The translations under genes were made by a program, and so were the position numbers. A DNA stretch of 61,666 nt from a virus, in the IMG/VR virus record IMGVR_UViG_3300025133_000106. One strand, written 5' to 3'. Below, piece by piece: positions 6,501 to 59,222 of the stretch; positions within the stretch are counted from its first letter, which is position 1; each line of letters starts with the position of its first letter. The notes under the pieces were generated by a model, which was given only the letters and a program-made list of their open reading frames with translations, ran no database searches and was not told the DNA's origin.

Positions 6501-7330
6501 AGACAAGAGAGATTCAATTATTGTTGAATAAGCATGGCCACCGGCTACGCTTAGACGACCAAATGGGGCCTACGACAAAGTCAGCAGTTCGAGCCTTTCA
6601 AAGAAAGCACAAGCTTGTTGCTGATGGTATTGTTGGTTCATTAACTATTAGAGCATTACGTAAATCTCCGGCCAGTTCGAAGAAGCTAAAGTTCAAAAAA
6701 ATTGTATGCGACGATTTTGTTCTTGGCGGAATAGTATCTGGAGCAAATCAAACCTGGATAAGGGAAGATGCAGTTTCTTCATTAGCAAAAGTAAGAGACA
6801 CGATCCAGAGCGCAGGCGCGCTATTTACATCTCATGGCGGAAGGAGACTTCTAAGTGCATCAGTAGGCAAAAATAGAAGTAAAACGAGCCTTCATTATCT
6901 TGGTCTTGCTCATGATCTTCATACAAAATCAGGTATGGTTGATCCTTACAATGATCCTTATGTTGTTGTCCAGAGTCTCGAGGATCACCGGAGGTGGACT
7001 GTATACGCTAGGGTTGATTACCCTATAGGCACATATTTAGAGCTGGAGGCGTACACCTATGAACACAAAAAAATCTCCGTTGCAGGAAATTATATTAACA
7101 TCACTGAGCTTATGGCAGAAAATGGCTGGAAGAGTATCCGCGCAAGAAAGTCATTTTTCTCGAAAGGAAATACGCTGGCAGCAGAGTGGTGGCATTTCCA
7201 AAATGAAGATGTCTTAAAAAAGGGTGTAACTTTCGGCTCAGAATTGATAAAATCATATAAATTGAAAAAATTAAAATCATATCCGTTATGGAAACGTAAT
7301 GGTGTCAAGTGGCAAAAGAATTGGTTTTAG
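6497..7330 (+). CDS. endolysin: PG-binding domain + peptidase M15 (VanY-like)
   Basis: PG_binding_1-like QMGPTTKSAVRAFQRKHKLVADGIVGSLT; M15 motifs SLHYLGLAHDLH and AEWWHFQ; ATGA overlap with upstream gene. Confidence 0.7.
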   Translation: MKTREIQLLLNKHGHRLRLDDQMGPTTKSAVRAFQRKHKLVADGIVGSLTIRALRKSPASSKKLKFKKIVCDDFVLGGIVSGANQTWIREDAVSSLAKVRDTIQSAGALFTSHGGRRLLSASVGKNRSKTSLHYLGLAHDLHTKSGMVDPYNDPYVVVQSLEDHRRWTVYARVDYPIGTYLELEAYTYEHKKISVAGNYINITELMAENGWKSIRARKSFFSKGNTLAAEWWHFQNEDVLKKGVTFGSELIKSYKLKKLKSYPLWKRNGVKWQKNWF

Positions 7331-7891
7331 ATGAAGACAAAAGAGCTTATAAAGCAACTTCAAGAAGCAGACCCATCAGGTGAGCTAGATTGTAACTGTA
7401 ATGGGGCAGATATATACTTCGTTCAACATGAGTACGGCTATTATGACGGCCCATATGAGCGTTTAAAAAGAGATGACTCCAAAGCATGTTACAACGTTAC
7501 TGGAGCTGAAATCACTACCGCCGGAGAAAAAGTTATAATTCATACGTTGTCTATTGAAGATGCATTGTGTAATGATACTGAGCTACCTGTTACTGTCACA
7601 CATTATAATAGAGATAGAATGGCTGAGTATCTTGACACAGTCGAAAAGTGGCGGCAAGAGGCTCGCGATAGTTATCGCAGAGTGAATATGATGTGCTTTG
7701 CGCAATTCGTTAAAAAAGAGTTTGGTCTTGAGCGTGAGATTGCAGATGCATTCTATGCAAGGAATATACACTATAAGGACGAGATTGATGCCGATATTAA
7801 AGCTACTAAATCAAGCCCTTGGCAAAAAAATCATGAAATGTGGAAGCGTAACATTACAGCAGTCAATGGCTTGTTAAAGAAGGTAGGCTAA
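7331..7891 (+). CDS. hypothetical protein
   Basis: 186-aa ORF, tight spacing. Confidence 0.5.
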   Translation: MKTKELIKQLQEADPSGELDCNCNGADIYFVQHEYGYYDGPYERLKRDDSKACYNVTGAEITTAGEKVIIHTLSIEDALCNDTELPVTVTHYNRDRMAEYLDTVEKWRQEARDSYRRVNMMCFAQFVKKEFGLEREIADAFYARNIHYKDEIDADIKATKSSPWQKNHEMWKRNITAVNGLLKKVG

Positions 7892-7892
7892 T

Positions 7893-8831
7893 ATGGACCC
7901 TAAATCTGTCAACTGCGTTATTTATCATGGAAATTGTTCTGATGGTTTTGGCGCAGCATGGGCAGCATGGAAAGTCCTTGGCAATAAGGCTGAATATCAT
8001 GCAGCCTTTCATGGAAAAGCGCCACCTGACGTGACTGGTAAGCGTGTCGTCGTTCTTGATTTTGCATATGACAAAAAAATAACAAAACATTTAATTGCGA
8101 CTGCCGAAGATTTCGAAATGAGAGATCACCACAAGTCAGCAATGATGATGCTAGATGGAATAGCTAAACCAGACTGGTTTCAGTTGGGCAACAGCGGAGC
8201 AATTTTAGCATGGGAATATTTTCATCGAGGGATACCTGCGCCAAGGTTTCTGCAGTTCATAGAAAACAGAGATATGGGCTGGAAACCCTATATGGAATAC
8301 TCAAAAGAATTCTCGACAGCCTTTGATATGATCCCGCTAGAATTTCCAGCGTATGACAGAATGATGAATGCATCTGTTGTAGATGATTGTATTAGAAAGG
8401 GTTCACACATTTTACCTTACGCAGATGCTGCTATTGATAAAGTATGCTCAAAGGCAGTTAAGCGTAAGCTGCAAGAGCATTGTGTTCTTGTTGTTAACTC
8501 GACTCAGTGGATATCTGAGGTCGGCATGAGATTAGCGCCTGATTGCGATTATGCAATAGTGTGGTATTGGGATCATAATGAGAAATATGCGAAAGTTAGC
8601 TTACGATCTTTCCACGATCATATTGACTGCGGTTCGATCGCTAAGCGATTCGGAGGCGGAGGGCATGCGGAGATCGCAGGCTTTGAATACTCAGGAAACA
8701 TCGAAGACTTGTTTAAAAAGCAAATTAAAACCCTCCGAATTGAAACTAAGGATTCAGGAGCACAGCAACTTACCGGCTCGTCCGAGTTGGGATATGATCT
8801 GGATGTCGACAGCTCGTCTTTTGGCAAGTAG
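7893..8831 (+). CDS. DHH-family phosphoesterase (NrnA/RecJ-like core)
   Basis: Motifs HGNCSDGFG (I), VVVLDF (II), RDHH (III), GGGGHAE (IV). Confidence 0.7.
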   Translation: MDPKSVNCVIYHGNCSDGFGAAWAAWKVLGNKAEYHAAFHGKAPPDVTGKRVVVLDFAYDKKITKHLIATAEDFEMRDHHKSAMMMLDGIAKPDWFQLGNSGAILAWEYFHRGIPAPRFLQFIENRDMGWKPYMEYSKEFSTAFDMIPLEFPAYDRMMNASVVDDCIRKGSHILPYADAAIDKVCSKAVKRKLQEHCVLVVNSTQWISEVGMRLAPDCDYAIVWYWDHNEKYAKVSLRSFHDHIDCGSIAKRFGGGGHAEIAGFEYSGNIEDLFKKQIKTLRIETKDSGAQQLTGSSELGYDLDVDSSSFGK

Positions 8832-9189
8832 ATCAATTGATCCAAGAACAAAGGTTGGGTGTGTTATCGTTACTGGCGATAATTCACAAGTCTTAGCAGT
8901 TGGATACAATGGTGATCAGAAGGGCGGAACAAACATGGTCGAATCTGATGAACCTGGCAAGAGCGGCACAATACACGCTGAGGAGAATGCACTAATCAAA
9001 TGCGATTTTTCTAGTCATAAAGAGAAGATTATGTATCTTACAGTCAGTCCATGTGATCAATGTGCAAAGAAAATTATAAATGCAGAGATTGATGAAGTTG
9101 TTTATGATGTCGAATACAGAATTACGGATGGTATTGATAGACTAGAGGCTGCTGGTATCTTTGTAAGAAAGTTTAAAACAAATGAATAG
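8794..9189 (+). CDS. dCMP deaminase (cytidine/deoxycytidylate deaminase fold)
   Basis: Zinc motifs HAEENA and SPCDQCAKKI; start moved to internal ATG 8794 to avoid a long overlap with the DHH gene. Confidence 0.7.
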   Translation: MIWMSTARLLASRSIDPRTKVGCVIVTGDNSQVLAVGYNGDQKGGTNMVESDEPGKSGTIHAEENALIKCDFSSHKEKIMYLTVSPCDQCAKKIINAEIDEVVYDVEYRITDGIDRLEAAGIFVRKFKTNE

Positions 9190-24803: not shown

Positions 24804-27800
24804 ATGAAGGGCTATTTAAAAATCAAACTTGACGACGGGACATGGGTCTATAAACCTAATGTACTTTATAAGTACGAGGCAGAAAGAGCTTTTCGTTCAT
24901 TGGTTGCTGGAACTGCATTATCAACAGTGGCTATCGATGGCGATCTGTTGTTCAAGGGAGACCATATTCTAAATGAAGCGTCGGGCACATCACCTTTAGA
25001 GTTAAGCTACTATAATGTGCGCTTAAACAATTCAATGCCAGCCCTGTCTTCCATAGGCCAATACATGAGGCTTCGAAGATTCATAACAACTACGAACCTT
25101 GCCCCAGCGCAACCATCGCAGATCGCATACGCTCAAGGAAGAATCAGCGCTCGGGCAACTACAACGACACCCGATGCGGCTGTTTCAAGTACCGATATCA
25201 ATTTCAAGCAGATTGGTAGCGTTTTTGGACACCCCTCAGGGCGTGAGGCATTTTTTAATGAAACAGCTGTTACACCGCTCGGTGTAGGATCAGTGTTTAG
25301 CAGTGGATGCCTTGATTTTGCCACTGGCTCTAATGGCAGTCCTGCAATTTCTGGCTCCAATACGGGCGAAGAAGGTCACTATATTTACTCAATTTTCGCT
25401 ACAAAAACAGGCGATTTAAATGGCGCGGGTGATGACGCTGAGTACTACTTCATAAGACAACCATATTATGTAGGTGCTTTTGCTCCTGGTGCTGCGGAGG
25501 CTGACGGCTATACCTCTGCTGAAACTTTATCTGATCGGTATAATGCCTCGTCAACATCACGAGGGTTCGTCAACATCCAGACTTTATTCTGTGATACAGA
25601 TACTCCTGCGCCTACTCAAGTGCCATATGTCATAGATTATCCGACGCAAGCATCAAACGCAAGCTCTGTGTCAAGTATAATATCAGGTATGTGCTTTGAT
25701 GGCTTGGCTGCTGGTTCTGGATCATCACCCCGGAAATCAGGGAAGATTTGGTGGACAGTAACTGATAGGGCCACTAATGATCACGCGAATGCAACAACTT
25801 CACGATCTCTATGGGCATGGAAAAGATTTACTGGTGAGACGCCATCGAGGAAAGATGCAAGCGACTCAATATCAACAGAAGCTTTGTCAGCTTTTCCCAC
25901 ATTACCAACTAACGTCCAATTCAGAGACTTGAAGCCTGGCCGGAACGGGTATTTATATCTTGCATGTGATAGTGATGGTGATACTAATGATACAGGCACC
26001 GACGTAGGTGCGTTGATAATGATAGATGCTGCCGGTGATGCAGTGTTAAATGTTATAGGGACAACTGCAAGCGGTATCTATGATGTAGCCGGACTACAAA
26101 GCAATAATACCCTGGGTATTGCTATTGATAAGTCAGGGCTTCATACTAACGCAGCAGAGCTAGATAGAGTCTGGGCATTACATCGTGATGGATTGTCATA
26201 CATTGACGTATTTACATCGACGGGGATTATAAGTGGTTCGGTCGTAACAGTTAGCGATGCAGGCTCAGATTTTAATACGATTGACAGTGATTCTGTTCGC
26301 GGTTTAGCAGGATTTGTACCAAGAGGGTCCAGTGCGGTTAGAAATAACCATGGTACATTGATTGATGTTGATTCAAGCGGAAATGTATATTGGGTATCTA
26401 CACAGACAGCAGGTAACAATACAACAGGAATTCAGAGATTAAATAGCATACAAGGCAGCGACTTCTCACATGCATATTATAGTATGCATACAACAGCAGA
26501 AGTCAATGCTGCCGGGTTTATACATTTAGGTCTCAATGCTGGAGTCGCCGGCCAGTCTGGTTCAATTAACACGCTTATCATAAATAGAAAAGATACAGGT
26601 GATCCAGAAAGCGATGACATTTGGCTTGCAACACAGAATGGTGATAATCAATTCATTTCAAAAAATATCACACGAATCCCAATCGATTCATGGCTGTCTG
26701 GATCAAATAACATAGGCGTAGGATTTTATGGTGACACGCTCGATGATGGCCTGACTGATGTATCATACCATGTGTCCGTCGCTCCAGGTGGTGCAGCGTG
26801 GTTCTCTGCAGACACCGCATCAACAATCGGCTTGCTTGAGCCGAATGGAAAGGTTGTATCTGGATCAGGCACTGGAACATCAATGTCTTCACCAACGATC
26901 ATAGGAGGCAAATTTGTCCAAGAAGTCGTTATTCCAGCCGATGATTTTACAGAGCATCATGTTGGTAAAAGGATAGTATTGTCAACTACCTCCAATAGTA
27001 TTAATAGCGGCTCTTTTGTCGTGACTGGCGTCTTGGATAATAATACTATACAGATTGTTAATTCAGGTACATCAGAAGTGTCTAGCTTTAACTGGACCTG
27101 TATCGGTGAGGAATTCGACGCTACAGGTACTATAGGGGGAAGTCCAGGTTCTTGGCAGGCGGCTGAGGCTACTGAATGTCATGGCTACAATTGGTTTACT
27201 GATGATAGCGGGGTCGCATATATATTTAGGCCTAGAAATGGAGCTGCGATAGGAAGGCATGACCTTGTTTTTTCTACCCCAACATCATGGCAATGGAGCA
27301 CAGGATCATCAACTTGGTATAGAAGCAGAGTTCATCACAGGGCGGCTGCATCGACAAAACTAGTACACTCTAGCTCAGAGAAACTTGCAAATGGCGTCGA
27401 AGTAGCATTTTCTGGATCTGGTACTGGTGGAAGTGAATTTGTTCAAGATGAATATTACACATTCCCTGTATCAATAGGCCTTGTTAAAGACTCGACGCAA
27501 GAAATTACTTGGGGCTATGATATTTTTGCGCAAAAAACCGAATTGATAGAATCGCCGCTTGCTGAAGCCTTATCTGTTAAGACTGCGGAATCACATTCGT
27601 GCGTTGGCGGGTTTCTGGATGTTGCTTCATTAGCGTCAGTAACATCTGATGACATTTTTGTGCTAGCTGCTAGCTCATCAGCAATGCTTGCTGCATACCA
27701 GAGAAGACTACTGCTTGACGGAACAAACAACACGCAGACCATCGGAGGCAGTGGCGGGACATTAACAACAACTGCTGGATTCCAAACAGGTATTGATCTA

Positions 27801-28700
27801 CAAGCAGATATAATCACTTCAAAATTGGGGTTTGCATGGGAAGCAATGCCTGCTGCAACATATGCAGATGTTAAAATGGACTTATACAGCGCAACTGACG
27901 CTGCTGGTTCTGGCAGCTGGACTCTACGTTCATCGTACCAGTCTAATGAAGATCATCCAGCATGGAACTTGCGAACCGATGCATTCCATGATGACTCCGC
28001 TGCAAATGATTCATTTGCAACGTCACCTAACGAAGTTGTTATTGATTTAGAATTATTAGGTGGAAGTGGATCATTCGGCACAAATAGTGCCAGACGATAT
28101 TGGAAACTTGCTTTTTACCAATGGCAGGGCACAGCAGCTGTAACACCTAATATGGCTGGTAATTTCGCCTTGAACGCTGCTGGTGACAATATCGGATATA
28201 GTGATAATCAAAGGTTATTGACTGCTAATGATACCAACTACATGGCAAACCATATAGTCAGAGCCGTTTTCATTCAAGATTCAGGAACATCATTTTCAAC
28301 TGGGCCTGCTGTAAATCAGGTTACTGCCACAGGAGGTAATACATTTGCGACTGGATCATTTGCAGTAAATGATTTATTTAGGGTAGTCGAAAGTAGCATC
28401 ATCACTGACGAACATGTTATTGCTTCCGTCGATTCTTCAACGCAATTAACTCTTGCAACAGCAGTTAAATTAGGGAAAACGAACGAAGCCTGGGAAATTG
28501 TTAGAAATGCTGATGTCAGACCAAGAGATGATGAGGGCGGCTCTGAAGATCAGGCAGAATTCCCTCCTTCAGGTGGCGCTGGCGTTGGGCAAGTTTATAT
28601 ATGCCCAATAACCGGACATATATTCTATAATGATACAGATATTACGAATAATAGACTGTTTAGAACCGAGAGATATATTAAGGTGAAGCGAGAAATCTAG
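24804..28700 (+). CDS. large (1298-aa) Gly/Ser/Thr/Asp-rich protein, likely tail fibre or other virion structural protein
   Basis: Composition and size typical of phage fibre/receptor-binding proteins; no enzymatic motif seen. Confidence 0.5.
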   Translation: MKGYLKIKLDDGTWVYKPNVLYKYEAERAFRSLVAGTALSTVAIDGDLLFKGDHILNEASGTSPLELSYYNVRLNNSMPALSSIGQYMRLRRFITTTNLAPAQPSQIAYAQGRISARATTTTPDAAVSSTDINFKQIGSVFGHPSGREAFFNETAVTPLGVGSVFSSGCLDFATGSNGSPAISGSNTGEEGHYIYSIFATKTGDLNGAGDDAEYYFIRQPYYVGAFAPGAAEADGYTSAETLSDRYNASSTSRGFVNIQTLFCDTDTPAPTQVPYVIDYPTQASNASSVSSIISGMCFDGLAAGSGSSPRKSGKIWWTVTDRATNDHANATTSRSLWAWKRFTGETPSRKDASDSISTEALSAFPTLPTNVQFRDLKPGRNGYLYLACDSDGDTNDTGTDVGALIMIDAAGDAVLNVIGTTASGIYDVAGLQSNNTLGIAIDKSGLHTNAAELDRVWALHRDGLSYIDVFTSTGIISGSVVTVSDAGSDFNTIDSDSVRGLAGFVPRGSSAVRNNHGTLIDVDSSGNVYWVSTQTAGNNTTGIQRLNSIQGSDFSHAYYSMHTTAEVNAAGFIHLGLNAGVAGQSGSINTLIINRKDTGDPESDDIWLATQNGDNQFISKNITRIPIDSWLSGSNNIGVGFYGDTLDDGLTDVSYHVSVAPGGAAWFSADTASTIGLLEPNGKVVSGSGTGTSMSSPTIIGGKFVQEVVIPADDFTEHHVGKRIVLSTTSNSINSGSFVVTGVLDNNTIQIVNSGTSEVSSFNWTCIGEEFDATGTIGGSPGSWQAAEATECHGYNWFTDDSGVAYIFRPRNGAAIGRHDLVFSTPTSWQWSTGSSTWYRSRVHHRAAASTKLVHSSSEKLANGVEVAFSGSGTGGSEFVQDEYYTFPVSIGLVKDSTQEITWGYDIFAQKTELIESPLAEALSVKTAESHSCVGGFLDVASLASVTSDDIFVLAASSSAMLAAYQRRLLLDGTNNTQTIGGSGGTLTTTAGFQTGIDLQADIITSKLGFAWEAMPAATYADVKMDLYSATDAAGSGSWTLRSSYQSNEDHPAWNLRTDAFHDDSAANDSFATSPNEVVIDLELLGGSGSFGTNSARRYWKLAFYQWQGTAAVTPNMAGNFALNAAGDNIGYSDNQRLLTANDTNYMANHIVRAVFIQDSGTSFSTGPAVNQVTATGGNTFATGSFAVNDLFRVVESSIITDEHVIASVDSSTQLTLATAVKLGKTNEAWEIVRNADVRPRDDEGGSEDQAEFPPSGGAGVGQVYICPITGHIFYNDTDITNNRLFRTERYIKVKREI

Positions 28701-32234: not shown

Positions 32235-33902
<1,668 letters not shown>

Positions 33903-34622: not shown

Positions 34623-34904
34623 GTGCGTTATAAAATACTAACAATCGTCTTGCTTGTCTTACCTATAGTCTCATGTGACAAAGGACACCCGGAGTCGGAA
34701 GCGTTGAACCAGATTAATATTGCACAAACATACCAATATACTCAGGAACATAAAAATAGTTACGTGATGGCAAGAAGAACACTCCAAATTGATGTGCCAC
34801 AAACAGCTAATGCCACACAGCATGCTCGCAGCCAAACAAAAGAGATTTTAAAGGAAATAGAGGAAATAGAGGAAATACTAGATGCCCAAGATGACGTCCT
34901 ATAA
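34623..34904 (+). CDS. small lipoprotein
   Basis: Signal peptide + lipobox LPIVSC. Confidence 0.45.
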   Translation: MRYKILTIVLLVLPIVSCDKGHPESEALNQINIAQTYQYTQEHKNSYVMARRTLQIDVPQTANATQHARSQTKEILKEIEEIEEILDAQDDVL

Positions 34905-35166
34905 TACACTAACGCTCTTTAAGAATTTCGGGAGCTGGATAGTTGCGATAGTAATAGCAACTGGTGGTGCCATTGCTTATGTTAATGATATGGGCGCCAA
35001 GAATTATCTTTCTAGAGAAGACGGGCGAGTCCTTGAAGCACGAATCGCTAATTTGGAAAAAGACGTTGCTAAGCAAGACGAAAAATTAGAAAGAATTGTT
35101 GAACAAAACATCATAATAATTGGAAAATTAGGCGAAATAAAGGGTAAAATTAGTGCTCGTCGCTAG
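34882..35166 (+). CDS. membrane protein with N-terminal TM and coiled coil
   Basis: TM WIVAIVIATGGAIAYV, then heptad-like LEARIANLEKDVAKQDEKLERIV; overlaps the lipoprotein gene by 23 nt. Confidence 0.45.
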   Translation: MPKMTSYNTLTLFKNFGSWIVAIVIATGGAIAYVNDMGAKNYLSREDGRVLEARIANLEKDVAKQDEKLERIVEQNIIIIGKLGEIKGKISARR

Positions 35167-35582
35167 TGTACTATGTTAACATATAGTAATAATATTATTA
35201 GGACACAATATGAGTAATTATACACCAGCATGGTTAATTGATGCATTAAGCAAACTTCGCGAAGAGCAGAAAGAGCAACCACAACGGTTATATATACAAA
35301 TTCCATTACCCTGTGATGATGAACCTATAGAAGATAGAACACCAGAAGAATCTAAAATTATTAGGATCGAATTATGATTATTTATCCAGCGATGATTATA
35401 TATTGTATCCTTTCTGCTATATCATTTGGCATTGGGCAATTTGGTACAGGCAGTTTTTTCCTAGCTCTTACAGTTGTCCTAGCTACCGTAGTTTCAATGC
35501 TTAGGAAAAAAACAGAGCAATCAACAGAAGATACACACAGTTAATTAACGTATAGGTACTTTTCGTATATACGTTAGTATAT

Positions 35583-37448
35583 ATGAAGTTGAAATATATA
35601 CTTTTATCTATCTCCCTGCTTTTTATTGCTGCATGTGAAGATGATAACTTATCGAGAGTATGTCAGTCCCCACGCCCGTGTATAATAAATAACGGAAAAA
35701 TAATAACAGATAATCTTAAAGATTCTATTGGCACTTGCCAAAAGGGGATTACTTCATGCGATGCTAAAAATGAAATGGCATTTTGTGAAGGGTTCATCGG
35801 ACAAGTTAATGAAATCTGTGATGGTTTGGACAATGACTGCGATGGTTTAGTTGACGAAGGACATGATGGTGATGGTGATGGCTACAACTCTTGTGATAAC
35901 GATTGTAACGACAATATAGCCGAAATAAACCCAGGCGGGATAGAAATCTGCGATGGTTTTGATAATGACTGTAATGGTGTAATTGACAATTATTCACGGG
36001 ATTGCTGGACTGGTCCAGCTGTCGACAGTTATATTAGCCCTAGCGTTTGCAGAACTGGAAAACAAAGGTGTACTCATGGTGTGTGGGGACAATGTACAGG
36101 CGTTATTTTGCCGACACCAGAAACTTGCGATGGTTTTGATAATAATTGTGATGGTATTACTGACGAAGAAATTTTAGATTCATGCGGCCCGTCAAGTGAA
36201 GTTGGTTTGTGTCAACTTGGCACTCAAATATGTACATCAGAAGAAACATATTGCGTTGGTGCTGTACACCCTTCGCCTGAAATTTGCGATGGTTTTGATA
36301 ATGACTGTAATGGTGCAATTGATGAAGGGCTTGAGAGGTTATGCAGAACCTCATGTGAAAGTGGTATAGAAAGTTGCAACGTGGGCAACTGGATAGGGTG
36401 TAATGCTAGAAAACCAGTACGAGAAATATGTGATGGTTTTGATAATGACTGTGATGGGATAATCGATGAAGATTGTGCATGTACAGTCGGTGACGCTAGA
36501 GTATGCCGACAAAATGTCTTAGATCACGCTACGGGAGAGCTTATCAATTGCGGTACCGGCATTTCAATATGCGATTCTAATGGTGTATGGGGTACATGTT
36601 ATTCTTTTGCTACCGAGCCCGAAGTGTGTAATAACTGGGATGATGATTGCGACGGCACAATCGATGAGTTAACAGACGCATGCGGAGATCCTGCTACGGC
36701 TGGTATCGGACAATGCGTTTTAGGCGAGAGAACATGCACTTCAGGCATTTGGTCAAGCTGCATTGGACCAGTTTATCCTGAGCAAGAATCTTGTGATGGG
36801 GTTGACAATGACTGTGATGGGCTCATCGATGAGGATCTTACACCACATGATAAGGTAGATATAATTTTTGTGATAGATGGCTCAGGTTCAATGACACAAG
36901 CTATGTTCGCTCTGCAAGCAGGGATAAGTAATTATGTTGCAGACTTTCAAGGGACAGAACATAGGTTTGGTTTAGTTGTATTTCCTGGTAGAAGAGATAA
37001 TTATAATGTACTAGTAAATCTCGTTGATTTTACTGTATTTTCTGCAGCATTGAACAATCTTACCGCATCATATCCAGGTGTAGAGCCTTCATACGATGTA
37101 GTTCATGATTTAGCGAACAGCACAAATCCAGCACTTATCAATTGGAGAGAATCTACTGTAACATCAACAGGGGCATACCCTTACATCATTCTTATTACAG
37201 ACGAAGCAGCCCAGACAGTTGCTGGGTTCAATGAAAGTGATGTAGCGCTAAATACGAGCAACTGTGGTGTAGGTATATGCACACCAGGGGATGCATACGA
37301 AATGTATATAATAACACAAACACAGTTCTTTCTGCAATGGGATTCTATAGTCTTTAATGATGTGGCAAGATTGATAGAACTATATCCTCTAAATGCGTCC
37401 CGATACACAAACATTCTAAGGGGAATTTTTTCAAATGTGTGTAGATAA
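35583..37448 (+). CDS. lipoprotein with ~7 Cys-rich CDGxDNDCDGxxDE (MopE-like metal-binding) repeats and C-terminal VWA domain
   Basis: Lipobox LLFIAAC; repeated CDGFDNDC(D/N)G(I/A/L)IDE; MIDAS-like DIIFVIDGSGSM. Confidence 0.65.
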   Translation: MKLKYILLSISLLFIAACEDDNLSRVCQSPRPCIINNGKIITDNLKDSIGTCQKGITSCDAKNEMAFCEGFIGQVNEICDGLDNDCDGLVDEGHDGDGDGYNSCDNDCNDNIAEINPGGIEICDGFDNDCNGVIDNYSRDCWTGPAVDSYISPSVCRTGKQRCTHGVWGQCTGVILPTPETCDGFDNNCDGITDEEILDSCGPSSEVGLCQLGTQICTSEETYCVGAVHPSPEICDGFDNDCNGAIDEGLERLCRTSCESGIESCNVGNWIGCNARKPVREICDGFDNDCDGIIDEDCACTVGDARVCRQNVLDHATGELINCGTGISICDSNGVWGTCYSFATEPEVCNNWDDDCDGTIDELTDACGDPATAGIGQCVLGERTCTSGIWSSCIGPVYPEQESCDGVDNDCDGLIDEDLTPHDKVDIIFVIDGSGSMTQAMFALQAGISNYVADFQGTEHRFGLVVFPGRRDNYNVLVNLVDFTVFSAALNNLTASYPGVEPSYDVVHDLANSTNPALINWRESTVTSTGAYPYIILITDEAAQTVAGFNESDVALNTSNCGVGICTPGDAYEMYIITQTQFFLQWDSIVFNDVARLIELYPLNASRYTNILRGIFSNVCR

Positions 37449-37686
37449 AACTTTATATGAAATTGGTGATCTTATTGTGATATCATCATTAAATAAAATA
37501 GGAATAATTCTCTCGTTACAAGAGGGTTTTAATTCTGGTAAAACAAACATGACATTTCATAGACGTTATGATGTATGGGCTCATGGACCCTTCTGCAACG
37601 TCTATGTAGATAATAGAATAGAAAAAATATCACGAGAAGATATTCTTTTCTTAAAAAAGGCAAAAAAAGGCGATGGTAAAAAGTAG
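37435..37686 (+). CDS. small paralog family protein (YEIGDLIVI)
   Basis: GDL-motif family. Confidence 0.4.
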   Translation: MCVDKTLYEIGDLIVISSLNKIGIILSLQEGFNSGKTNMTFHRRYDVWAHGPFCNVYVDNRIEKISREDILFLKKAKKGDGKK

Positions 37687-37954
37687 TTTTAGACTTGGCG
37701 ATATGGTTATGACAGTTAAAGATTTAGTTTCACGATCAGACGGGTTTATTTTTGGAAATGATGAAGGAAAGGAAAAACACCCATACGATTGGTTTAAAGG
37801 AGCAGTACCCATCGAGAAGGGCACGTACTTTCTATTTTTAGGTGTCGACGAAGAAAACGGGGATGGTAAAAGAGGTCTCATTAAAAAGATGCCTATGGGT
37901 GAAACTCGTAGCATTGAAGTTATAGACATTGAGTTAGTATCACAACTTGATTGA
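37673..37954 (+). CDS. small paralog family protein (FRLGDMVMTV)
   Basis: GDL-motif family; overlaps the previous ORF by 14 nt. Confidence 0.4.
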   Translation: MVKSSFRLGDMVMTVKDLVSRSDGFIFGNDEGKEKHPYDWFKGAVPIEKGTYFLFLGVDEENGDGKRGLIKKMPMGETRSIEVIDIELVSQLD

Positions 37955-39115: not shown

Positions 39116-39967
39116 GTGGCTAAACAAGATAGTGGTGGCGTAGGATTTTATCTTAAACAGATTGGTAAAAGACCTTTGCTTACAAAAGAACAAGAAATTA
39201 TTCTTTCTCAAAAAATTGAGGGCTTTGAGGATGTTAAATATACAAGAGAGCCTGATGGCGAAATAAGAATAGAATCTTCAAAAGCAATTAGCAAAAGTGA
39301 GAAATCAAGAGCTAAGAATAAGATGATAGAATCTAACTTACGCTTAGTTGTCTCGATAGCAAAAAGGTTCCAAAATAGAGGCTGCAGTCTTGATGACTTA
39401 ATCGCAGCAGGCAATATTGGTTTAATCAGAGCTACTGAGTTATTTGATTGGAGAAAAGGGTTTAGATTCTCAACATATGCAACTTGGTGGATTCGCCAAA
39501 ATATCGGGCGCGAAGTTGCATCACAAAGTAAGCAGATAAAGACCTCTGGTAGGGTTACTGACGTTTACGTTCGAATACAATTGGCACGTGATGAATTCAT
39601 TGAACTGCATGCACAAGAACCTACCTGCGCCGAGCTTGCATCGATAATAGGGGTGACTGAAACGACAGTCCAATCAGCAATTTCAGGTATTCCTTTGCTG
39701 GTATCTATTGATAAGCCCATTGGCTCAGATGGCGCTGACTCAAGAACATTAAAAGATGTAATAGAAGACGTCGACTCAGAATCCCCACTTGATTTAATTA
39801 ATAAAAAAGAACTTACTGCTCTCTTATCTGGGGTTTTAAACTCACTAAACCCTAGAGAAGAAAAGATACTTAGAATGAGATTTGGTTTAACGGAAAATCC
39901 AAAAGATCATAAAAAGTTTCCAATCTCCTCTAAAGAGTTAGAGAAGATGAAGGCTTCATGTGCTTAA
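39116..39967 (+). CDS. sigma-70 family RNA polymerase sigma factor (apparently lacking region 4.2)
   Basis: Region 2 NLRLVVSIAKRF...DLIAAGNIGLIRATELFD...FSTYATWWIRQNI; region 3/4.1 up to ILRMRFGL, then the ORF stops. Confidence 0.75.
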   Translation: MAKQDSGGVGFYLKQIGKRPLLTKEQEIILSQKIEGFEDVKYTREPDGEIRIESSKAISKSEKSRAKNKMIESNLRLVVSIAKRFQNRGCSLDDLIAAGNIGLIRATELFDWRKGFRFSTYATWWIRQNIGREVASQSKQIKTSGRVTDVYVRIQLARDEFIELHAQEPTCAELASIIGVTETTVQSAISGIPLLVSIDKPIGSDGADSRTLKDVIEDVDSESPLDLINKKELTALLSGVLNSLNPREEKILRMRFGLTENPKDHKKFPISSKELEKMKASCA

Positions 39968-56212: not shown

Positions 56213-58204
56213 ATGGCAAAAGTTAATTTAGAAAACAGAACATTAACGACAACTGGTATCGGCGATGAAATACGCTTCGAGATTTCTAATAAGGCCGGTG
56301 ATAACGCACACTTGATGCGTATCATGAGAGATCAGTTATATACAGATAATATATTGGCGGTGTTACGTGAATATGGGGCTAACGCTAGGGATGCAAATGC
56401 TGAAGCGGGTAATGAAGACATACCCATTAAAGTTAACTTACCAACCGCACTAACACCGACTCTAAAGATACGGGATAACGGCCCCGGCCTATCAGAGGAA
56501 GGTATACGAGTTTACGTTAGTTATGGCTCTTCTACTAAACGTGATACTAATGAACAAGTTGGTACACTTGGAATTGGGTCAAAAGCTGCATTCTCTTATA
56601 CATCATCATTTAACATAACTTCATGGCACAAAGGTATGAAGCGTGTATATAATGCTGCATTAGATGAATTAGATGAAGGCATTTTATGCTTGCTATACGA
56701 AGATGAGTGTGATATAGGTATAACAGGCGTCGAGATTGCAATTCCTGTAAAGCAAGCTGATCACAGAGCCTTCCTTTTGAAAGCAGGACATGTATTTAAG
56801 TACATGAGCGCAAACGTTAAATTTAATCTCCCTGACGTTATATCTGATAGATTAGATGATGTGACTTTCAAGGGTACAAAAGCAGAACTTTTACGCCGGG
56901 CCAACAATAATGAAGCAGTTATGGGAGGTATTTCATACAAAGTTTCATCAGAAGAAATTACTAGTGTGATGAATACCAATGACTATGATTTCGGCTGGTA
57001 CTCAAGATTCAGGTTTTTCTTTGACATAGGTGAAGTGGACTTCACGGCAAACAGAGAAGAGTTAAAATACACTCCAAGAACAAGGGCGGCACTAAAGAAA
57101 ACAATTTCAACCCTTTATACAGATTTACTAGCAAAACTACATAAAGTTAAAAATTCTCAATGTTCATCTTGGGAGAAGAAAATATTCTATTATAAGTTTT
57201 GCAATGCTGGAATTAAACTGCCCTTTAATTTTAAGCCGAAGAGTTTTATATGCAAAAGAGCAAAAACTTTTAACGGAAAAAGAGCACTACTTCCTCCTAA
57301 AAAACAAACGCAGATCATTATTATTGATACAAGAAAAGCACTTAAAGGGTACATGATACCATCAGGTGCTGTTACGTTACGACCTGCAACAGGATGCACG
57401 GCAGATGATGTTTTTGCTGAATTGGAATCTCTGGTTGCAGAGCAAGGATGCGAAGGTATACCAATTAGTAGAATTTCATCTTTACCTTGGACTGGTAAAG
57501 ATGTACCAAAGAAAGTACCAAACTCAAAACATGGGCATAGGGCATTTCGTCTTATGCCCCAAGCTGTTTACTCGTTGCAATCAGAAAACTGGATACCCAG
57601 GGTGTCGCTACAAGCAGATACTGACGTATACTTTCTTTTGTGTAGATTTGTGCCCCATGAAATGAAAAATTATCTTGATATTATTGATAAAGACAAGAAA
57701 GTTGCAGCTAAACTTGGCATTGATTTTCCAAAAATTTACGGGTACAAATCTACAGAAAAATCGCCGGTAAAGCCTGGAACCGTAAAGGGTATATCATATT
57801 CGGCATGGCGAGCTACCTTCTATGAAGAAATACAAAAGCACCCTTTAGTGATCGATGAACTTAGAAATATCGCTTGGAAAAACCACCGTATTAGTAGCAC
57901 TTGGAGATACACAAACGCAACATCACTTTTGTTAAAAAGTACAAAATCTATACTTCCTGCTGAACACATATTATCAAGGTATCTAAATGCAGCGACAAAA
58001 GGCATCTCATGGAAATGGACAAATTTTCAATATCTTTTATCACAATGTAAAGGTATTGTGTACCCAACAGAACATGAAGATTATCTAGCTTTGCTTTCTG
58101 CGGATTACCCTCTTTTGATGAAGTGTTTTGGTGAAGTAAATGAGGGTACTATCACAGACTGGGTGGATTACATTCTATTAAAGGACGCTGCAAAAGCAGC
58201 ATAA
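56213..58204 (+). CDS. rIIA: rIIA-like protein (GHKL/Bergerat-fold ATPase)
   Basis: N-box VLREYGANARDA, G1 IRDNGPGL, G2 region VGTLGIGSKAAFSYTSSFNITSWHKG closely resembling T4 rIIA [22 protein letters not shown] (from memory); 663 aa. Confidence 0.7.
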   Translation: MAKVNLENRTLTTTGIGDEIRFEISNKAGDNAHLMRIMRDQLYTDNILAVLREYGANARDANAEAGNEDIPIKVNLPTALTPTLKIRDNGPGLSEEGIRVYVSYGSSTKRDTNEQVGTLGIGSKAAFSYTSSFNITSWHKGMKRVYNAALDELDEGILCLLYEDECDIGITGVEIAIPVKQADHRAFLLKAGHVFKYMSANVKFNLPDVISDRLDDVTFKGTKAELLRRANNNEAVMGGISYKVSSEEITSVMNTNDYDFGWYSRFRFFFDIGEVDFTANREELKYTPRTRAALKKTISTLYTDLLAKLHKVKNSQCSSWEKKIFYYKFCNAGIKLPFNFKPKSFICKRAKTFNGKRALLPPKKQTQIIIIDTRKALKGYMIPSGAVTLRPATGCTADDVFAELESLVAEQGCEGIPISRISSLPWTGKDVPKKVPNSKHGHRAFRLMPQAVYSLQSENWIPRVSLQADTDVYFLLCRFVPHEMKNYLDIIDKDKKVAAKLGIDFPKIYGYKSTEKSPVKPGTVKGISYSAWRATFYEEIQKHPLVIDELRNIAWKNHRISSTWRYTNATSLLLKSTKSILPAEHILSRYLNAATKGISWKWTNFQYLLSQCKGIVYPTEHEDYLALLSADYPLLMKCFGEVNEGTITDWVDYILLKDAAKAA

Positions 58205-58214
58205 CAAGGCATAC

Positions 58215-59222
58215 ATGAAATATAGCATAACTAACGACGTCATAACATTAATATTACCATCTGGTGAACTAGAGACCTTACATAGAGAAGATGATAACTT
58301 TTCTTCATTGCGAGATGCACTCTTTCGAGAAGATTGGGATGAAGCACTTTCTTTGGCCTCTCCAAAGAGTGCAATTAAAAACTGGGCATCAGGTGATTTT
58401 GAAGTAACTGATGATGATACTATTCTTTACAAAAAAGAAGCTATTCCAATTGAGCTGGCTCAACGAATTCTTTCGATGGTAAGGAACGACGCATCACCAG
58501 ATGTATTCATGAACTTCTGGATACGGTTGAATAATAATACAAGCGCCCGCTCTATTGAGCAACTATATAAATTTTTAGAGCATGAAAATATTCCCCTGAC
58601 GGATAAAGGGACATTTTTGGCGTACAAATCTGTTACACAAGATTATCTTGACCATCATACAAAAACGATCTCTAATAAGCCTGGCTGCACGAATGAAATG
58701 CCCAGAAACAAGATTTCAGATGACCCAAACTCAGCATGCAGCTATGGATATCATGTCGGCGCGCTTGAATACGCTGAAGGTTTTGGTAACGGAAGTAGGA
58801 TTCTGATCTGTGAAGTGGATCCAGCTGACGTCGTTTGTGTTCCCTATGATTGTTCATACCAGAAAGTAAGAGTTTGTAAGTATACTGTTTTGCATGAGTA
58901 TACACAAGCACTGCCATCTGTTACATGGTCATATAGAGATGATGATGTGAGCATTGATGATTGCGATGATTGTGATGATTATGGTGATTGTGGTGATCCT
59001 TTTGAGCTTGGCCGTCCGAGTGATATCCACAGCCAGCCAGCCGGCCACCCCGTAGTTAAGCCAACTCAACCAGACTGGACTAAGTTTACCATTTACCCAC
59101 TCGAAGATTTTACACTCAAGCAATTGCGCGAATATGCTAGAAAACATCTGAAGATTAGCACTGCGAATTCTATCCCTGGGGGCAAAAAAGCTTTAATAAA
59201 ACGCATCAGGGAAACTTGGTAA
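58215..59222 (+). CDS. rIIB: rIIB-like protein (by position and size)
   Basis: 335-aa ORF immediately after rIIA-like gene; Asp/Cys-rich segment DDCDDCDDYGDCGD; assignment by synteny only. Confidence 0.4.
   Translation: MKYSITNDVITLILPSGELETLHREDDNFSSLRDALFREDWDEALSLASPKSAIKNWASGDFEVTDDDTILYKKEAIPIELAQRILSMVRNDASPDVFMNFWIRLNNNTSARSIEQLYKFLEHENIPLTDKGTFLAYKSVTQDYLDHHTKTISNKPGCTNEMPRNKISDDPNSACSYGYHVGALEYAEGFGNGSRILICEVDPADVVCVPYDCSYQKVRVCKYTVLHEYTQALPSVTWSYRDDDVSIDDCDDCDDYGDCGDPFELGRPSDIHSQPAGHPVVKPTQPDWTKFTIYPLEDFTLKQLREYARKHLKISTANSIPGGKKALIKRIRETW

What the first reader, a model, noticed from the sequence alone, without database searches (positions are those of the whole stretch)
35583..37448. 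Phage lipoprotein combining MopE-like Cys/Asp metal-binding repeats with a VWA domain
After a lipobox (LLFIAAC) the protein carries about seven copies of CDGxDNDC(D/N)GxxDE. This repeat is known from myxobacterial and methanotroph surface proteins such as copper-binding MopE. A VWA/MIDAS domain (DIIFVIDGSGSM) follows. This suggests a periplasmic or outer-membrane adhesin-like protein, possibly for superinfection exclusion or receptor masking.
Basis: partly seen in the sequence, partly recalled or inferred. Interest (0 to 1): 0.5.

Follow-up and report, generated by a model that had tools for sequence, protein, structure and literature searches.

The report
Phage lipoprotein with integrin-like head
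A large marine phage encodes a membrane-anchored protein with a stiff, probably calcium-binding, cysteine-rich stalk and an integrin-like binding head; the unstudied family was found only on phage-like contigs and probably grips a host envelope component, perhaps to block other phages.

Summary
ORF 35583-37448 (+, 621 aa) has a lipoprotein signal peptide, exactly seven PF11617 "MopE-type" motifs (Pfam E=4e-39) and a C-terminal VWA domain. The VWA match is just below the Pfam cutoff by sequence. It is confirmed by a family profile against PDB integrin I-domains, by an AlphaFold model (pLDDT 89) and by Foldseek (TM 0.69 to the CD11b I-domain). The MIDAS site (D432-x-S434-x-S436, E501, D540) is invariant in 74 orthologs.

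"Copper-binding" does not transfer. MopE's Cu(I) site lies outside this motif. The repeat's conserved Asp/Asn positions match, in register, six of the Ca2+ ligands of the teneurin-4 C-rich domain.

The full architecture was found only on phage-type contigs: over 120 unnamed orthologs, dozens of IMG/VR contigs up to 280 kb, and a short form of about 390 aa. Cellular relatives, mostly Myxococcota, share only the repeats.

The neighbourhood is non-structural (Cpn60, Nudix, sigma factor, MoxR-like ATPase). The host is unresolved.

Best reading: an exported, lipid-anchored, Ca2+-stiffened stalk presenting a metal-dependent binding head to a conserved host envelope ligand. Superinfection exclusion or receptor masking is the most likely role, but it is untested. 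I rate it a new variant of a known kind, of moderate interest.

The parts
35583..37448 (+). Complete gene: 621-aa lipoprotein with a repeat stalk and a VWA head (stop codon at 37446-37448)
   Evidence: ORF list. Exact sequence is in the public collection as P0123, on a 308,593-bp contig. More than 120 full-length orthologs at 41-51% identity.
35583..35636 (+). Signal peptide II with lipobox (MKLKYILLSISLLFIAAC; lipidated Cys18)
   Evidence: Passes the PROSITE PS51257 regex, as do 88 of 123 family members; the rest are near misses or truncated gene calls. Cys18 is invariant in the 74-sequence alignment A1. AlphaFold predicts a helix at aa 3-12 followed by a low-confidence linker.
35637..35810 (+). 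Acidic post-Cys segment (EDDN...) and N-terminal Cys-rich cap (aa 19-76; Cys 27, 33, 52, 59, 68)
   Evidence: Net charge of positions +2..+6 after the Cys averages -2.07 and is negative in 70 of 74 sequences, with almost no K/R. Beta-hairpins are predicted at aa 32-41 and 55-69. This region is less conserved than the rest.
35811..36833 (+). Stalk of seven Cys-rich modules (aa 77-417), each a PF11617 acidic loop plus small disulfide-rich beta-hairpins
35817..35858 (+). Motif 1, CDGLDNDCDGLVDE (aa 79-92), followed by a DxDxDG stretch (aa 95-100)
   Evidence: Regex. The segment aa 95-142, which starts just after this motif (the DxDxDG stretch through motif 2), is the only part that aligns to MopE* 2VOV (E=0.012).
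35949..35990 (+). Motif 2, CDGFDNDCNGVIDN (aa 123-136)
36126..36167 (+). Motif 3, CDGFDNNCDGITDE (aa 182-195)
36285..36326 (+). Motif 4, CDGFDNDCNGAIDE (aa 235-248)
36429..36470 (+). Motif 5, CDGFDNDCDGIIDE (aa 283-296)
36627..36668 (+). Motif 6, CNNWDDDCDGTIDE (aa 349-362)
36792..36833 (+). Motif 7, CDGVDNDCDGLIDE (aa 404-417), directly abutting the VWA domain
36834..37445 (+). VWA / integrin I-like head domain (aa 418-621)
   Evidence: Pfam VWA just below the cutoff. Family profile against the PDB hits integrin alpha-X I-domain at 1.2e-5 and integrin beta-8. pLDDT is 92-98 with alternating beta/alpha elements. Foldseek against the PDB gives integrin I-domains, factor B, CMG2/ANTXR2 and collagen VI, with TM 0.65-0.71 normalised to the target. 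The subfamily is narrow: 181 hits among 1.84 billion representatives.
36876..36890 (+). MIDAS D432-G-S434-G-S436
   Evidence: D432, S434 and S436 are invariant in 74 of 74 sequences. DxSxS is present in 75 of 78 complete IMG/VR relatives.
37083..37085 (+). E501 in the position of the MIDAS Thr
   Evidence: Invariant. It aligns to the MIDAS Thr (G-F-T) of the integrin alpha-X I-domain in the HMMER alignment.
37200..37205 (+). D540-E541 at the end of beta-4 (the MIDAS Asp of 'ILITDE')
   Evidence: Invariant. It aligns to 'VITDG' of the integrin alpha-X I-domain.
37440..37442 (+). Invariant penultimate Cys620; Cys561 and Cys566 are also invariant in the head
   Evidence: The mature protein has 46 Cys, an even number. 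Pairing of C620 with a stalk Cys is an inference and was not checked on coordinates.

Best explanation
Shown: the gene encodes a protein with a conserved type-II (lipoprotein) signal peptide. It has a roughly 400-residue, very acidic (pI about 4), disulfide-rich stalk built from seven PF11617 modules. A C-terminal VWA domain carries an invariant MIDAS metal site. The full architecture was found only on phage-type contigs and lies among non-structural genes. Inferred, step 1: during infection the protein is exported by Sec, lipidated on Cys18 and anchored in the host envelope, and its 46 remaining cysteines form disulfides there. Inferred, step 2: each module binds Ca2+ through the E-x-C-[DN]-x-x-D-[ND]-[DN]-C-[DN]-G-x-x-D positions. 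These are in the same register as the Ca2+ ligands of the teneurin-4 C-rich domain, so the stalk would be a rigid, protease-resistant rod, and copper is not involved. Inferred, step 3: the head uses its MIDAS-bound divalent cation to capture an acidic side chain of a conserved host envelope protein, as integrin I-domains do. Most likely purpose (an inference with the least support): occupying or distorting a receptor or entry component. Infected cells and their debris would then no longer adsorb or admit the same or competing phages, which is superinfection exclusion or receptor masking, functionally like T5 Llp but with an unrelated, much larger, integrin-like protein.
For: Lipobox: Cys18 is invariant and 88 of 123 members pass the PROSITE rule. 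Export is consistent with 44-53 Cys in every ortholog and 46 after the lipid Cys in this protein. Repeats: Pfam E=4e-39; the three-repeat model has pLDDT 94.9. In the pooled logo, the O-donor positions +1, +4, +5, +6, +8 and +12 are 96-100% D/N. These map onto teneurin-4 ligands D840, D843, N844, D845, D847 and D851, which bind Ca2+ in a 1.5 A structure (PMC9058538); the motif similarity was noted earlier in PMC3278476. Head: profile hits to integrin I-domains, VWA fold confirmed, and MIDAS residues invariant. The most conserved segments of the head are the MIDAS-forming loops, which suggests a conserved ligand. Phage specificity: more than 120 orthologs on contigs up to 308 kb. Most of the 80 IMG/VR loci kept (478 relatives detected) carry the full length. 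The short form of about 390 aa also sits in phage-like contexts. None of the 80 best cellular loci encodes the head. The context is non-structural: Cpn60, Nudix, sigma-70, MoxR-like ATPase, ligase, RIIA/B. Precedent: phage lipoproteins that inactivate receptors, such as T5 Llp (PMC9586334).
Confidence: 0.4

Rival explanations
1. Virocell adhesin. The lipoprotein is flipped to the outer surface of the infected cell, and the VWA head makes infected cells stick to particles, neighbouring cells or matrix. This would favour transmission of progeny to nearby hosts.
For: The overall design (anchor, rigid Cys-rich stalk, distal MIDAS head) is that of adhesion receptors; the best structural matches are integrin I-domains, CMG2 and collagen VI. 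The segment after the lipid Cys is polar then acidic (S/E/D/N at +2; D/E at 35-61% of positions +3..+6; K/R about 0). This resembles the Bacteroidota lipoprotein export signal SDDDD/SDDFE that drives surface exposure (PMC5080379). The window is poor in Shine-Dalgarno sites (13 of 60 genes), has about 40% GC, and its Cpn60 resembles those of Flavobacterium, Cellulophaga and Bacteroides phages. All of this is compatible with a Bacteroidota host.
Against: The host is not established. The Bacteroidota -7 promoter motif TAnnTTTG is not enriched. The ligase and MoxR-like ATPase point to phages of Proteobacteria. The whole protein is 19% D/E, so an acidic N-terminus is only 2-3 fold above background. 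I know of no precedent for a lytic phage encoding an adhesin for the infected cell.
Confidence: 0.2
2. Periplasmic brace or lysis-timing factor. The rod spans the periplasm and the head binds peptidoglycan-associated or outer-membrane proteins. This would stabilise the envelope of a cell filling with large virions, or take part in envelope disruption.
For: In this window the gene follows four small envelope-type ORFs: a 93-aa lipoprotein (34623-34904), an overlapping 94-aa protein with an N-terminal TM segment and a coiled coil (34882-35166), and a 56-aa two-TM protein (35374-35544). In relatives an Amidase_2 endolysin-like gene lies about 6 kb upstream. Seven modules of about 50 aa could plausibly reach about 15-20 nm, which is periplasm scale; this is an estimate and was not measured.
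Against: Those small ORFs are not conserved next to the gene in 83 related loci. There are no coiled-coil or fusogenic features of spanins and no C-terminal TM segment. Repeat number and protein length vary (537-806 aa) in the wider family, which argues against a strict ruler.
Confidence: 0.1
3. Metal scavenger or chaperone in the manner of MopE/CorA. The repeats bind copper or another metal for the benefit of phage or host enzymes.
For: The Pfam family is named Cu-binding_MopE. The N-terminal 24 residues of MopE* contribute to weak Cu(II) binding on IMAC (PMC3423442).
Against: MopE's high-affinity Cu(I) site (His132, His203, Kyn130) lies outside the motif, and the aligned MopE segment is mostly the flexible N-terminal region (PMC3423442). 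The MopE/CorA beta-sandwich core is absent. There are only 4 His in the 399-aa stalk, and none is among the conserved columns. The conserved ligand-like positions are all hard O-donors (D/N/E), typical of Ca2+ (PMC9058538). This reading does not explain the invariant MIDAS head.
Confidence: 0.04
4. Virion component (tail adhesin or receptor-binding protein) whose N-terminus only resembles a signal peptide.
For: VWA-fold proteins occur among phage proteins, including one annotated as a virion structural protein (Pseudomonas phage PaMx28).
Against: The signal peptide and Cys18 are conserved throughout the family. About 23 disulfides need an oxidising compartment, whereas virions assemble in the cytoplasm. 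The gene lies among early-type and metabolic genes, not structural ones.
Confidence: 0.05

Closest known systems
Myxococcota-type PF11617 ('Cu-binding_MopE') repeat proteins
   Same: The same repeat: E-x-CDGxDNDCDGxxDE followed by small Cys-rich hairpins. Identity over the repeat region (query aa about 49-420) is 30-43%.
   Different: The cellular proteins lack this VWA head: no tblastn hit in any of the 80 best loci. They come from genomes of about 68% GC, against 26-58% for the phage carriers. MopE/CorA themselves share only one weak motif (E=0.012), and their copper site is elsewhere (PMC3423442).
Teneurin C-rich domain (related to thrombospondin type-3 and LDL-receptor class A Ca2+ sites)
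   Same: The D-x-x-D-N-D-x-D-G-x-x-D register of oxygen ligands next to disulfides. Six teneurin-4 Ca2+ ligands coincide with the near-invariant positions of the phage repeat (PMC9058538; PMC3278476).
   Different: There is no significant sequence or fold hit. The phage motif has a Cys where teneurin has Gly. It occurs as seven tandem modules, not one domain. Ca2+ binding has not been demonstrated for it.
Integrin I-domains and other MIDAS-type VWA adhesion domains (CD11b/CD11c, integrin beta subunits, CMG2/ANTXR2)
   Same: The Rossmann-like VWA fold (TM about 0.69). The DxSxS...D MIDAS is conserved, and the head sits at the end of a Cys-rich stalk attached to a membrane anchor. A Glu in place of the MIDAS Thr is what integrin beta I-domains use; this is my recollection of beta-3 E220 and was not tested here.
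   Different: Sequence identity is 12-18%. The anchor is an N-terminal lipid, not a C-terminal TM helix. The protein is prokaryotic-viral. There is no evidence of conformational regulation or of a partner subunit.
Phage superinfection-exclusion lipoproteins (T5 Llp; also Cor and Ltp from my own knowledge)
   Same: A phage-encoded lipoprotein exported into the host envelope and located outside the structural modules. Binding a host envelope protein to block reinfection or loss of progeny is the proposed logic (PMC9586334).
   Different: There is no homology (no PHROG hit). Llp is a small single domain that jams FhuA from the periplasm. This protein is 621 aa, multi-domain and metal-dependent, and its target is unknown.
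MoxR AAA+ / VWA pairs (here AAA_5 at 40944-42248 plus DUF2201 at 42249-43682)
   Same: A VWA-containing protein encoded within about 5 kb of a MoxR-like ATPase. This arrangement occurs in 20 of 59 related loci with enough flank.
   Different: The ATPase already has its own adjacent VWA-like partner (DUF2201). The target is exported, whereas MoxR systems are cytoplasmic. The linkage holds only in the closer sub-lineage.

Membership tests
PF11617 (MopE-type putative metal-binding motif) repeat proteins | HMM match above Pfam's gathering score | tested here: met
   133 bits against a cutoff of 27, E=4e-39, 7 stretches. Seven regex copies.
MopE/CorA copper-binding surface proteins | Homology to the MopE/CorA beta-sandwich core with the Cu(I) site His-His-kynurenine (His132, His203, Trp130 in MopE*) | tested here: not met
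   Only MopE* chain residues 6-53 align (E=0.012). This is mostly the flexible N-terminal region, of which the first 46 residues are missing from the crystal (PMC3423442). No other part of MopE is matched.
Teneurin C-rich / TSP3 / LDLa-type Ca2+ sites | Register of acidic or Asn oxygen ligands D-x-x-D-N-D-x-D-G-x-x-D | tested here: met
   The pooled logo over 7 repeats x 74 sequences gives 96-100% D/N at +1, +4, +5, +6, +8 and +12, and G at +9 in 88%. The ligand list is from PMC9058538.
Teneurin C-rich / TSP3 / LDLa-type Ca2+ sites | Detectable sequence or fold homology to a solved member | tested here: not met
Teneurin C-rich / TSP3 / LDLa-type Ca2+ sites | Actual Ca2+ binding | not testable with these tools
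   Needs ITC, ICP-MS or a crystal structure.
VWA / integrin I-like domains | Pfam VWA HMM above the gathering score | tested here: inconclusive
   The window protein scores 22.8 against 23.8 (PF00092) and 22.4 against 27 (VWA_2). Several orthologs carry precomputed PF00092/PF13519 hits. The family profile hits integrin I-domains at 1e-5.
VWA / integrin I-like domains | Alpha/beta Rossmann-like VWA fold | tested here: met
   The AlphaFold model has pLDDT 92-98 in this region. Foldseek probability is 1.0 and TM is 0.65-0.71 normalised to isolated I-domains.
VWA / integrin I-like domains | Complete MIDAS (DxSxS, Thr or Glu, Asp) | tested here: met
   D432, S434, S436, E501 and D540 are invariant in 74 sequences. 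The positions align to the alpha-X I-domain MIDAS.
Bacterial lipoproteins (signal peptidase II substrates) | n-region, h-region and lipobox [LVI][ASTVI][GAS]C (PROSITE PS51257) | tested here: met
   The target passes, as do 88 of 123 family members, and Cys18 is invariant. No dedicated predictor (LipoP or SignalP) was available.
Bacterial lipoproteins (signal peptidase II substrates) | Lipidation and cleavage in vivo | not testable with these tools
   Needs globomycin or palmitate labelling.
Bacteroidota surface lipoproteins (LES-bearing) | Polar residue then at least 2 acidic residues at +2..+6 after the Cys, in a Bacteroidota host | tested here: inconclusive
   The motif-like acidic run is present, but the host is unresolved. 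SD-poor leaders fit, the TAnnTTTG promoter motif is not enriched, and other genes point to phages of Proteobacteria.
Known phage superinfection-exclusion proteins (Llp, Cor, etc.) | Sequence membership in a described family | tested here: not met
   No PHROG family at E<=0.1, no NCBIfam, no PADLOC and no tblastn hit in 50,697 deposited phage records.
Known phage superinfection-exclusion proteins (Llp, Cor, etc.) | Blocks adsorption or entry of homologous phage when expressed | not testable with these tools
   Needs the host and the phage in culture.
Spanins | Outer-membrane lipoprotein paired with or fused to an inner-membrane anchor; coiled-coil or Pro-rich fusogenic periplasmic domain | tested here: not met
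   No C-terminal TM segment and no coiled coil: the model is beta-hairpins plus a VWA domain. The adjacent small membrane ORFs are not conserved.

The most novel reading that the evidence does not exclude
Large phages from several lineages carry their own integrin-like receptor. It would be a lipid-anchored, calcium-stiffened stalk with a beta-integrin-style (Glu-containing) MIDAS head, displayed on the surface of the infected cell. On this reading it reprograms what the 'virocell' sticks to (particles, neighbouring hosts) rather than merely blocking a receptor. That would be a new class of phage auxiliary function, and a domain fusion not seen in the cellular genomes sampled here.
Probability: 0.15. 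Interest if true: 0.75.

Novelty: new variant of a known kind. Interest (0 to 1): 0.5.

Why it matters
Most genes of large environmental phages have no assigned role. This is a widespread family with a very clear physical design. It has more than 120 clusters at 90% identity, appears in dozens of IMG/VR contigs, and has long and short forms in phages of 26-58% GC. Every source that names it calls it 'hypothetical', and I found no paper on it. Its invariant MIDAS site gives a simple handle for finding the ligand: pull-downs comparing point mutants with wild type. That ligand is probably a receptor or another key envelope component of an abundant marine host. If the protein is an exclusion factor, it would extend the Llp paradigm to a completely different, metal-dependent, integrin-like mechanism. 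If it is surface-exposed, it would be a phage-encoded adhesin of infected cells. The analysis also corrects a misleading label: PF11617 repeats in such proteins should be read as probable Ca2+-binding structural modules, not copper sites.

Tried and rejected
1. PHROGs, NCBIfam and PADLOC scans of the target gave no hit. tblastn against 50,697 deposited phages also gave none.

3. Host identification failed. Cpn60 points to Bacteroidota phages and bacterial GroL. RIIA is uninformative. The MoxR-like ATPase points to Vibrio, Pseudomonas and roseobacter phages, and the ligase to phages of Alphaproteobacteria. All are below 50% identity and contradict each other.

4. The Bacteroidota promoter motif TAnnTTTG is not enriched. 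Sigma-70-type promoter and terminator scans around the gene are at chance level.

5. The palindrome CGTATATACG just upstream of the start codon has only two exact copies in the window, and the other lies inside an ORF. I dropped it.

6. Conserved partner genes: the small lipoprotein and TM ORFs upstream, and the two small ORFs downstream, are not conserved next to orthologs. The 'GDLV...GIGIVL' mini-protein family is multi-copy and scattered, and lies directly downstream in only 2 of 81 loci.

7. Functional coupling to the MoxR-like ATPase: I judged it unlikely. The ATPase has its own DUF2201 partner, and the target is exported.

8. A cellular origin for the whole architecture: none of the 80 best cellular loci has the head. 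The next-nearest VWA relatives (about 390 aa) turned out to be a short form of the same phage family.

9. Literature searches for phage PF11617 or MopE-VWA proteins found nothing.
Full report
OBSERVATION. The ORF sits at exactly 35583-37448 on the + strand and encodes 621 aa. Its N-terminus, MKLKYILLSISLLFIAAC, has a basic n-region, a hydrophobic core and an I-A-A-C lipobox, and it satisfies the PROSITE PS51257 rule. The motif C-[DN]-x-x-D-[ND]-[DN]-C-[DN]-G-x-x-D-x occurs exactly seven times, at aa 79, 123, 182, 235, 283, 349 and 404. The shorter core D[ND][ND]C[ND]G occurs nowhere else in the six-frame translation of the window. Pfam PF11617 (Cu-binding_MopE) scores 133 bits against a cutoff of 27 (E=4e-39, seven stretches). 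The string DIIFVIDGSGSM is at aa 426-437. The Pfam VWA models fall just below threshold (22.8 against 23.8 bits). PHROGs, NCBIfam and PADLOC return nothing, and tblastn against 50,697 deposited phage genomes finds no relative.

THE WINDOW IS PHAGE DNA. All long ORFs are on one strand and GC is about 0.40. Recognisable genes are as follows:
- RIIA- and RIIB-like proteins, an ATP-dependent DNA ligase, an exonuclease and thymidylate synthase;
- a DHH phosphoesterase, two nucleotide-sugar epimerases and a Cpn60/GroEL;
- a Nudix hydrolase, a sigma-70-type factor and a MoxR-like AAA_5 ATPase with an adjacent DUF2201 (metallopeptidase plus VWA-like) protein;
- one tRNA-Val.
No virion structural gene was recognised in the window. 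The exact protein is in the public collection on a 308,593-bp contig.

THE FAMILY. A search of 5.8 billion proteins returns more than 120 full-length orthologs (41-51% identity, 584-663 aa). All are unnamed or 'hypothetical', and they sit on contigs up to about 210 kb. An IMG/VR scan finds 478 relatives. Most of the 80 loci kept carry the full length, at 29-50% identity, on viral contigs up to 280 kb. In 78 complete IMG/VR ORFs, length is 537-806 aa and Cys count is 42-69. A lipobox is found in 60 of 78 (limited by start-codon choice) and DxSxS in 75 of 78.

In the 74-sequence alignment A1, several features are invariant:
- Cys18;
- the Cys pairs and key Asp/Glu residues of six of the seven motif cores, with the first repeat at least 90% conserved;
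- D432, S434, S436, E501, D540 and E541;
- C561, C566 and C620.
Every ortholog has 44-53 Cys. The window protein has 46 after the lipid Cys. This fits a fully disulfide-bonded extracytoplasmic protein.

THE HEAD IS A REAL VWA DOMAIN. The family profile hits integrin alpha-X, alpha-L and alpha-M I-domains and the integrin beta-8 chain in the PDB, with a best E-value of 1.2e-5. In that alignment, DxSxS and 'ILITDE' align to the MIDAS DxSxS and 'VITDG' of alpha-X, and the invariant E501 falls on the MIDAS Thr. From my own knowledge, a Glu there is the arrangement used in integrin beta I-domains; I did not test this. AlphaFold2 with the family alignment gives mean pLDDT 89.2, with 92-98 in the head and alternating beta/alpha elements. 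Foldseek against the PDB returns integrin I-domains, factor B, CMG2/ANTXR2 and collagen VI at probability 1.0, with TM 0.65-0.71 normalised to isolated I-domains. Against viral models it returns generic phage and giant-virus VWFA proteins.

An exhaustive phmmer search of the head alone against 1.84 billion representatives finds only 181 proteins at E<=1e-3 and 24 at E<=1e-30, so the subfamily is narrow. The strong hits all carry the head at the C-terminus of 580-740-aa proteins or are fragments. The weaker tier (about 380-440 aa) is the same design in miniature: lipobox, one to three PF11617 motifs, and a VWA with the same EPSYD and TDE(E) signatures and a C-terminal Cys. These short forms also lie in phage-like, co-directional gene arrays: RecA-like, DnaB, RNA ligase and Metallophos in one locus, and peptide deformylase, IF-1 and many small ORFs in another.

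THE STALK IS NOT A COPPER SITE. The only solved protein the repeat region retrieves by sequence is MopE* (2VOV), at E=0.012 over chain residues 6-53. That segment is mostly the flexible N-terminal region, of which the first 46 residues are missing from the crystal structure. MopE's Cu(I) is held by His132, His203 and kynurenine130 (PMC3423442). [quoted passage not shown] The stalk has four His, and none is among the conserved columns.

In contrast, pooling the seven repeats over 74 sequences gives the following frequencies: E(-2) 0.99; C(0) 1.00; D/N(+1) 0.99; D(+4) 1.00; N/D(+5) 1.00; D/N(+6) 1.00; C(+7) 1.00; D/N(+8) 0.99; G(+9) 0.88; D(+12) 0.96. Tucker et al. linked the teneurin C-rich domain to PF11617 (PMC3278476). 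That domain binds three Ca2+ ions in a 1.5 A structure through D840, D843, N844, D845, D847 and D851, among others, in TSP3- and LDLa-like sites (PMC9058538). This is the same D-x-x-D-N-D-x-D-G-x-x-D register. I therefore infer that each module is a Ca2+-stabilised, disulfide-locked unit.

Cellular relatives were found in a scan of one genome for each of 185,579 bacterial and archaeal species. They are overwhelmingly Myxococcota, Polyangia and Bradymonadia MAGs with median GC 0.68, and they match only the repeat region. None of the 80 best loci encodes a relative of the head. Phage carriers have GC 0.26-0.58. In the data searched, the fusion of lipobox, repeats and this head is therefore specific to phages.

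CONTEXT. In 83 related loci, Cpn60 lies about 3-4 kb upstream in 30 of the 60 with enough flank. The AAA_5 ATPase and DUF2201 lie about 5-6 kb downstream in 20 of 59. Both hold only in the closer sub-lineage, where target identity is about 44% against about 34% elsewhere. Immediate neighbours are small, variable and non-structural. In this window the gene is preceded by a 93-aa lipoprotein, an overlapping 94-aa TM/coiled-coil protein and a 56-aa two-TM protein, but these are not conserved elsewhere. Promoter and terminator scans are at chance level.

HOST AND COMPARTMENT. The host is unresolved. Cpn60 resembles those of Flavobacterium, Cellulophaga and Bacteroides phages and bacterial GroL. 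The ATPase and the ligase resemble those of phages of Proteobacteria. Only 13 of 60 genes have a Shine-Dalgarno-like motif, against 3-6 of about 60 in controls. This fits an SD-poor host such as Bacteroidota, but the Bacteroidota -7 motif is not enriched. After the lipid Cys the family carries a polar-then-acidic run: net charge is -2 on average and negative in 70 of 74 sequences. This resembles the Bacteroidota lipoprotein export signal (PMC5080379) and would imply surface display in such a host. The whole protein is 19% D/E, however, and in Proteobacteria the sorting rules differ. So the choice between periplasm and surface stays open.

MECHANISM. Shown by the analyses above: the domain composition, the invariant MIDAS and lipobox Cys, the restriction to phage contigs and the non-structural context. 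Inferred: export and lipidation; Ca2+-dependent rigidity of a rod-like stalk; and MIDAS-mediated capture of an acidic residue of a conserved host envelope protein. The most conserved segments of the head are the MIDAS-forming loops.

The purpose is the weakest step. The best-precedented role for a phage-encoded envelope lipoprotein is receptor inactivation, that is superinfection exclusion and protection of progeny from debris, as shown for T5 Llp (PMC9586334). I give this 0.4. The rivals are:
- a surface adhesin of the infected cell (0.2);
- a periplasmic brace or lysis-related factor (0.1);
- a virion component (0.05);
- a MopE-like metal scavenger (0.04).

COMPARISON AND NOVELTY. The parts are known: PF11617 repeats, a VWA/MIDAS domain and a lipobox. 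The combination is unannotated, absent from PHROGs and from the literature searched, and found here only in phages. I file it as a new variant of a known kind, namely phage envelope lipoproteins and MIDAS adhesins. It is not a member of the MopE/CorA family (defining copper site and core absent), and it is not a member of any described exclusion family.

VERDICT. Interest is 0.5.

Noticed in passing
window 43835-46411 (+): This 858-aa ORF matches Pfam MVP_shoulder (3.8e-19) and Vault_3 (2.5e-8). It also matches solved rat Major Vault Protein (2QZV, E=5.7e-10, aa 464-806). It lies directly after the MoxR-like AAA_5 ATPase (40944-42248) and the DUF2201 metallopeptidase/VWA-like gene (42249-43682). 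A vault-protein homolog in a phage is unusual. It was not detected in the flanks of 83 related loci, and PADLOC gave no hit.
   Followed up: partly
window 34623-34904, 34882-35166, 35374-35544 (+): A cluster of small envelope-type ORFs lies just upstream of the target. It comprises a 93-aa protein with a lipobox (LPIVSC), a 94-aa protein with an N-terminal TM segment and a coiled coil that overlaps the first by 23 nt (a spanin-like pairing in unusual order), and a 56-aa two-TM, holin-like protein. None has a Pfam hit, and none is conserved by sequence next to orthologs.
   Followed up: partly
window 37435-37686 and 37673-37954 (+): These are two tandem small ORFs, and the first overlaps the target's stop by 14 nt. 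They belong to a 'GDLV...G(I/V)G(I/V)(V/L)L' mini-protein family of 60-100 aa. The family is multi-copy and scattered in related phage loci (15 members in 13 loci). It lies directly downstream of the target in only 2 of 81 loci, so it is not a dedicated partner.
   Followed up: yes
window 24804-28700 (+): This 1298-aa ORF is the largest in the window. It has no Pfam, PHROG or PADLOC hit, and it was not found in the flanks of related loci.
   Followed up: partly
L092, L093, L102, L106, L110: about 270-600 nt upstream of the target ortholog: A 63-70-aa ORF with a DnaJ-type zinc-finger pattern (K-C-x-x-C-x-G-x(5)-C-x-Y-C-D-x-x-G) recurs immediately upstream of the target in several related phage loci. 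No equivalent was seen in this window.
   Followed up: no
L166 (gene 8001-9170), L167 (gene 6946-8154): A short form (389-402 aa) of the same architecture exists in other phage-like contigs, including one at 58% GC. It has a lipobox, 1-3 PF11617 motifs, and a VWA with the same EPSYD and TDE signatures. This indicates that the design has spread across phages of different hosts.
   Followed up: partly
window, whole (60 + strand gene starts): Shine-Dalgarno-like motifs occur upstream of only 13 of 60 genes, leaders are A/T-rich, and G never exceeds 28% at any position from -25 to -1. This suggests an SD-poor host lineage. The Bacteroidota TAnnTTTG promoter element is not enriched.
   Followed up: partly
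window 32241-33902, 39116-39967, 56213-59222, 665-1693 and 4082-5074: The phage encodes a group I chaperonin (Cpn60, up to about 49% identical to bacterial-type GroL sequences), its own sigma-70-type factor, an RIIA/RIIB pair and two paralogous nucleotide-sugar epimerases. Cpn60 is the most consistently linked gene to the target, in 30 of 60 loci.
   Followed up: partly
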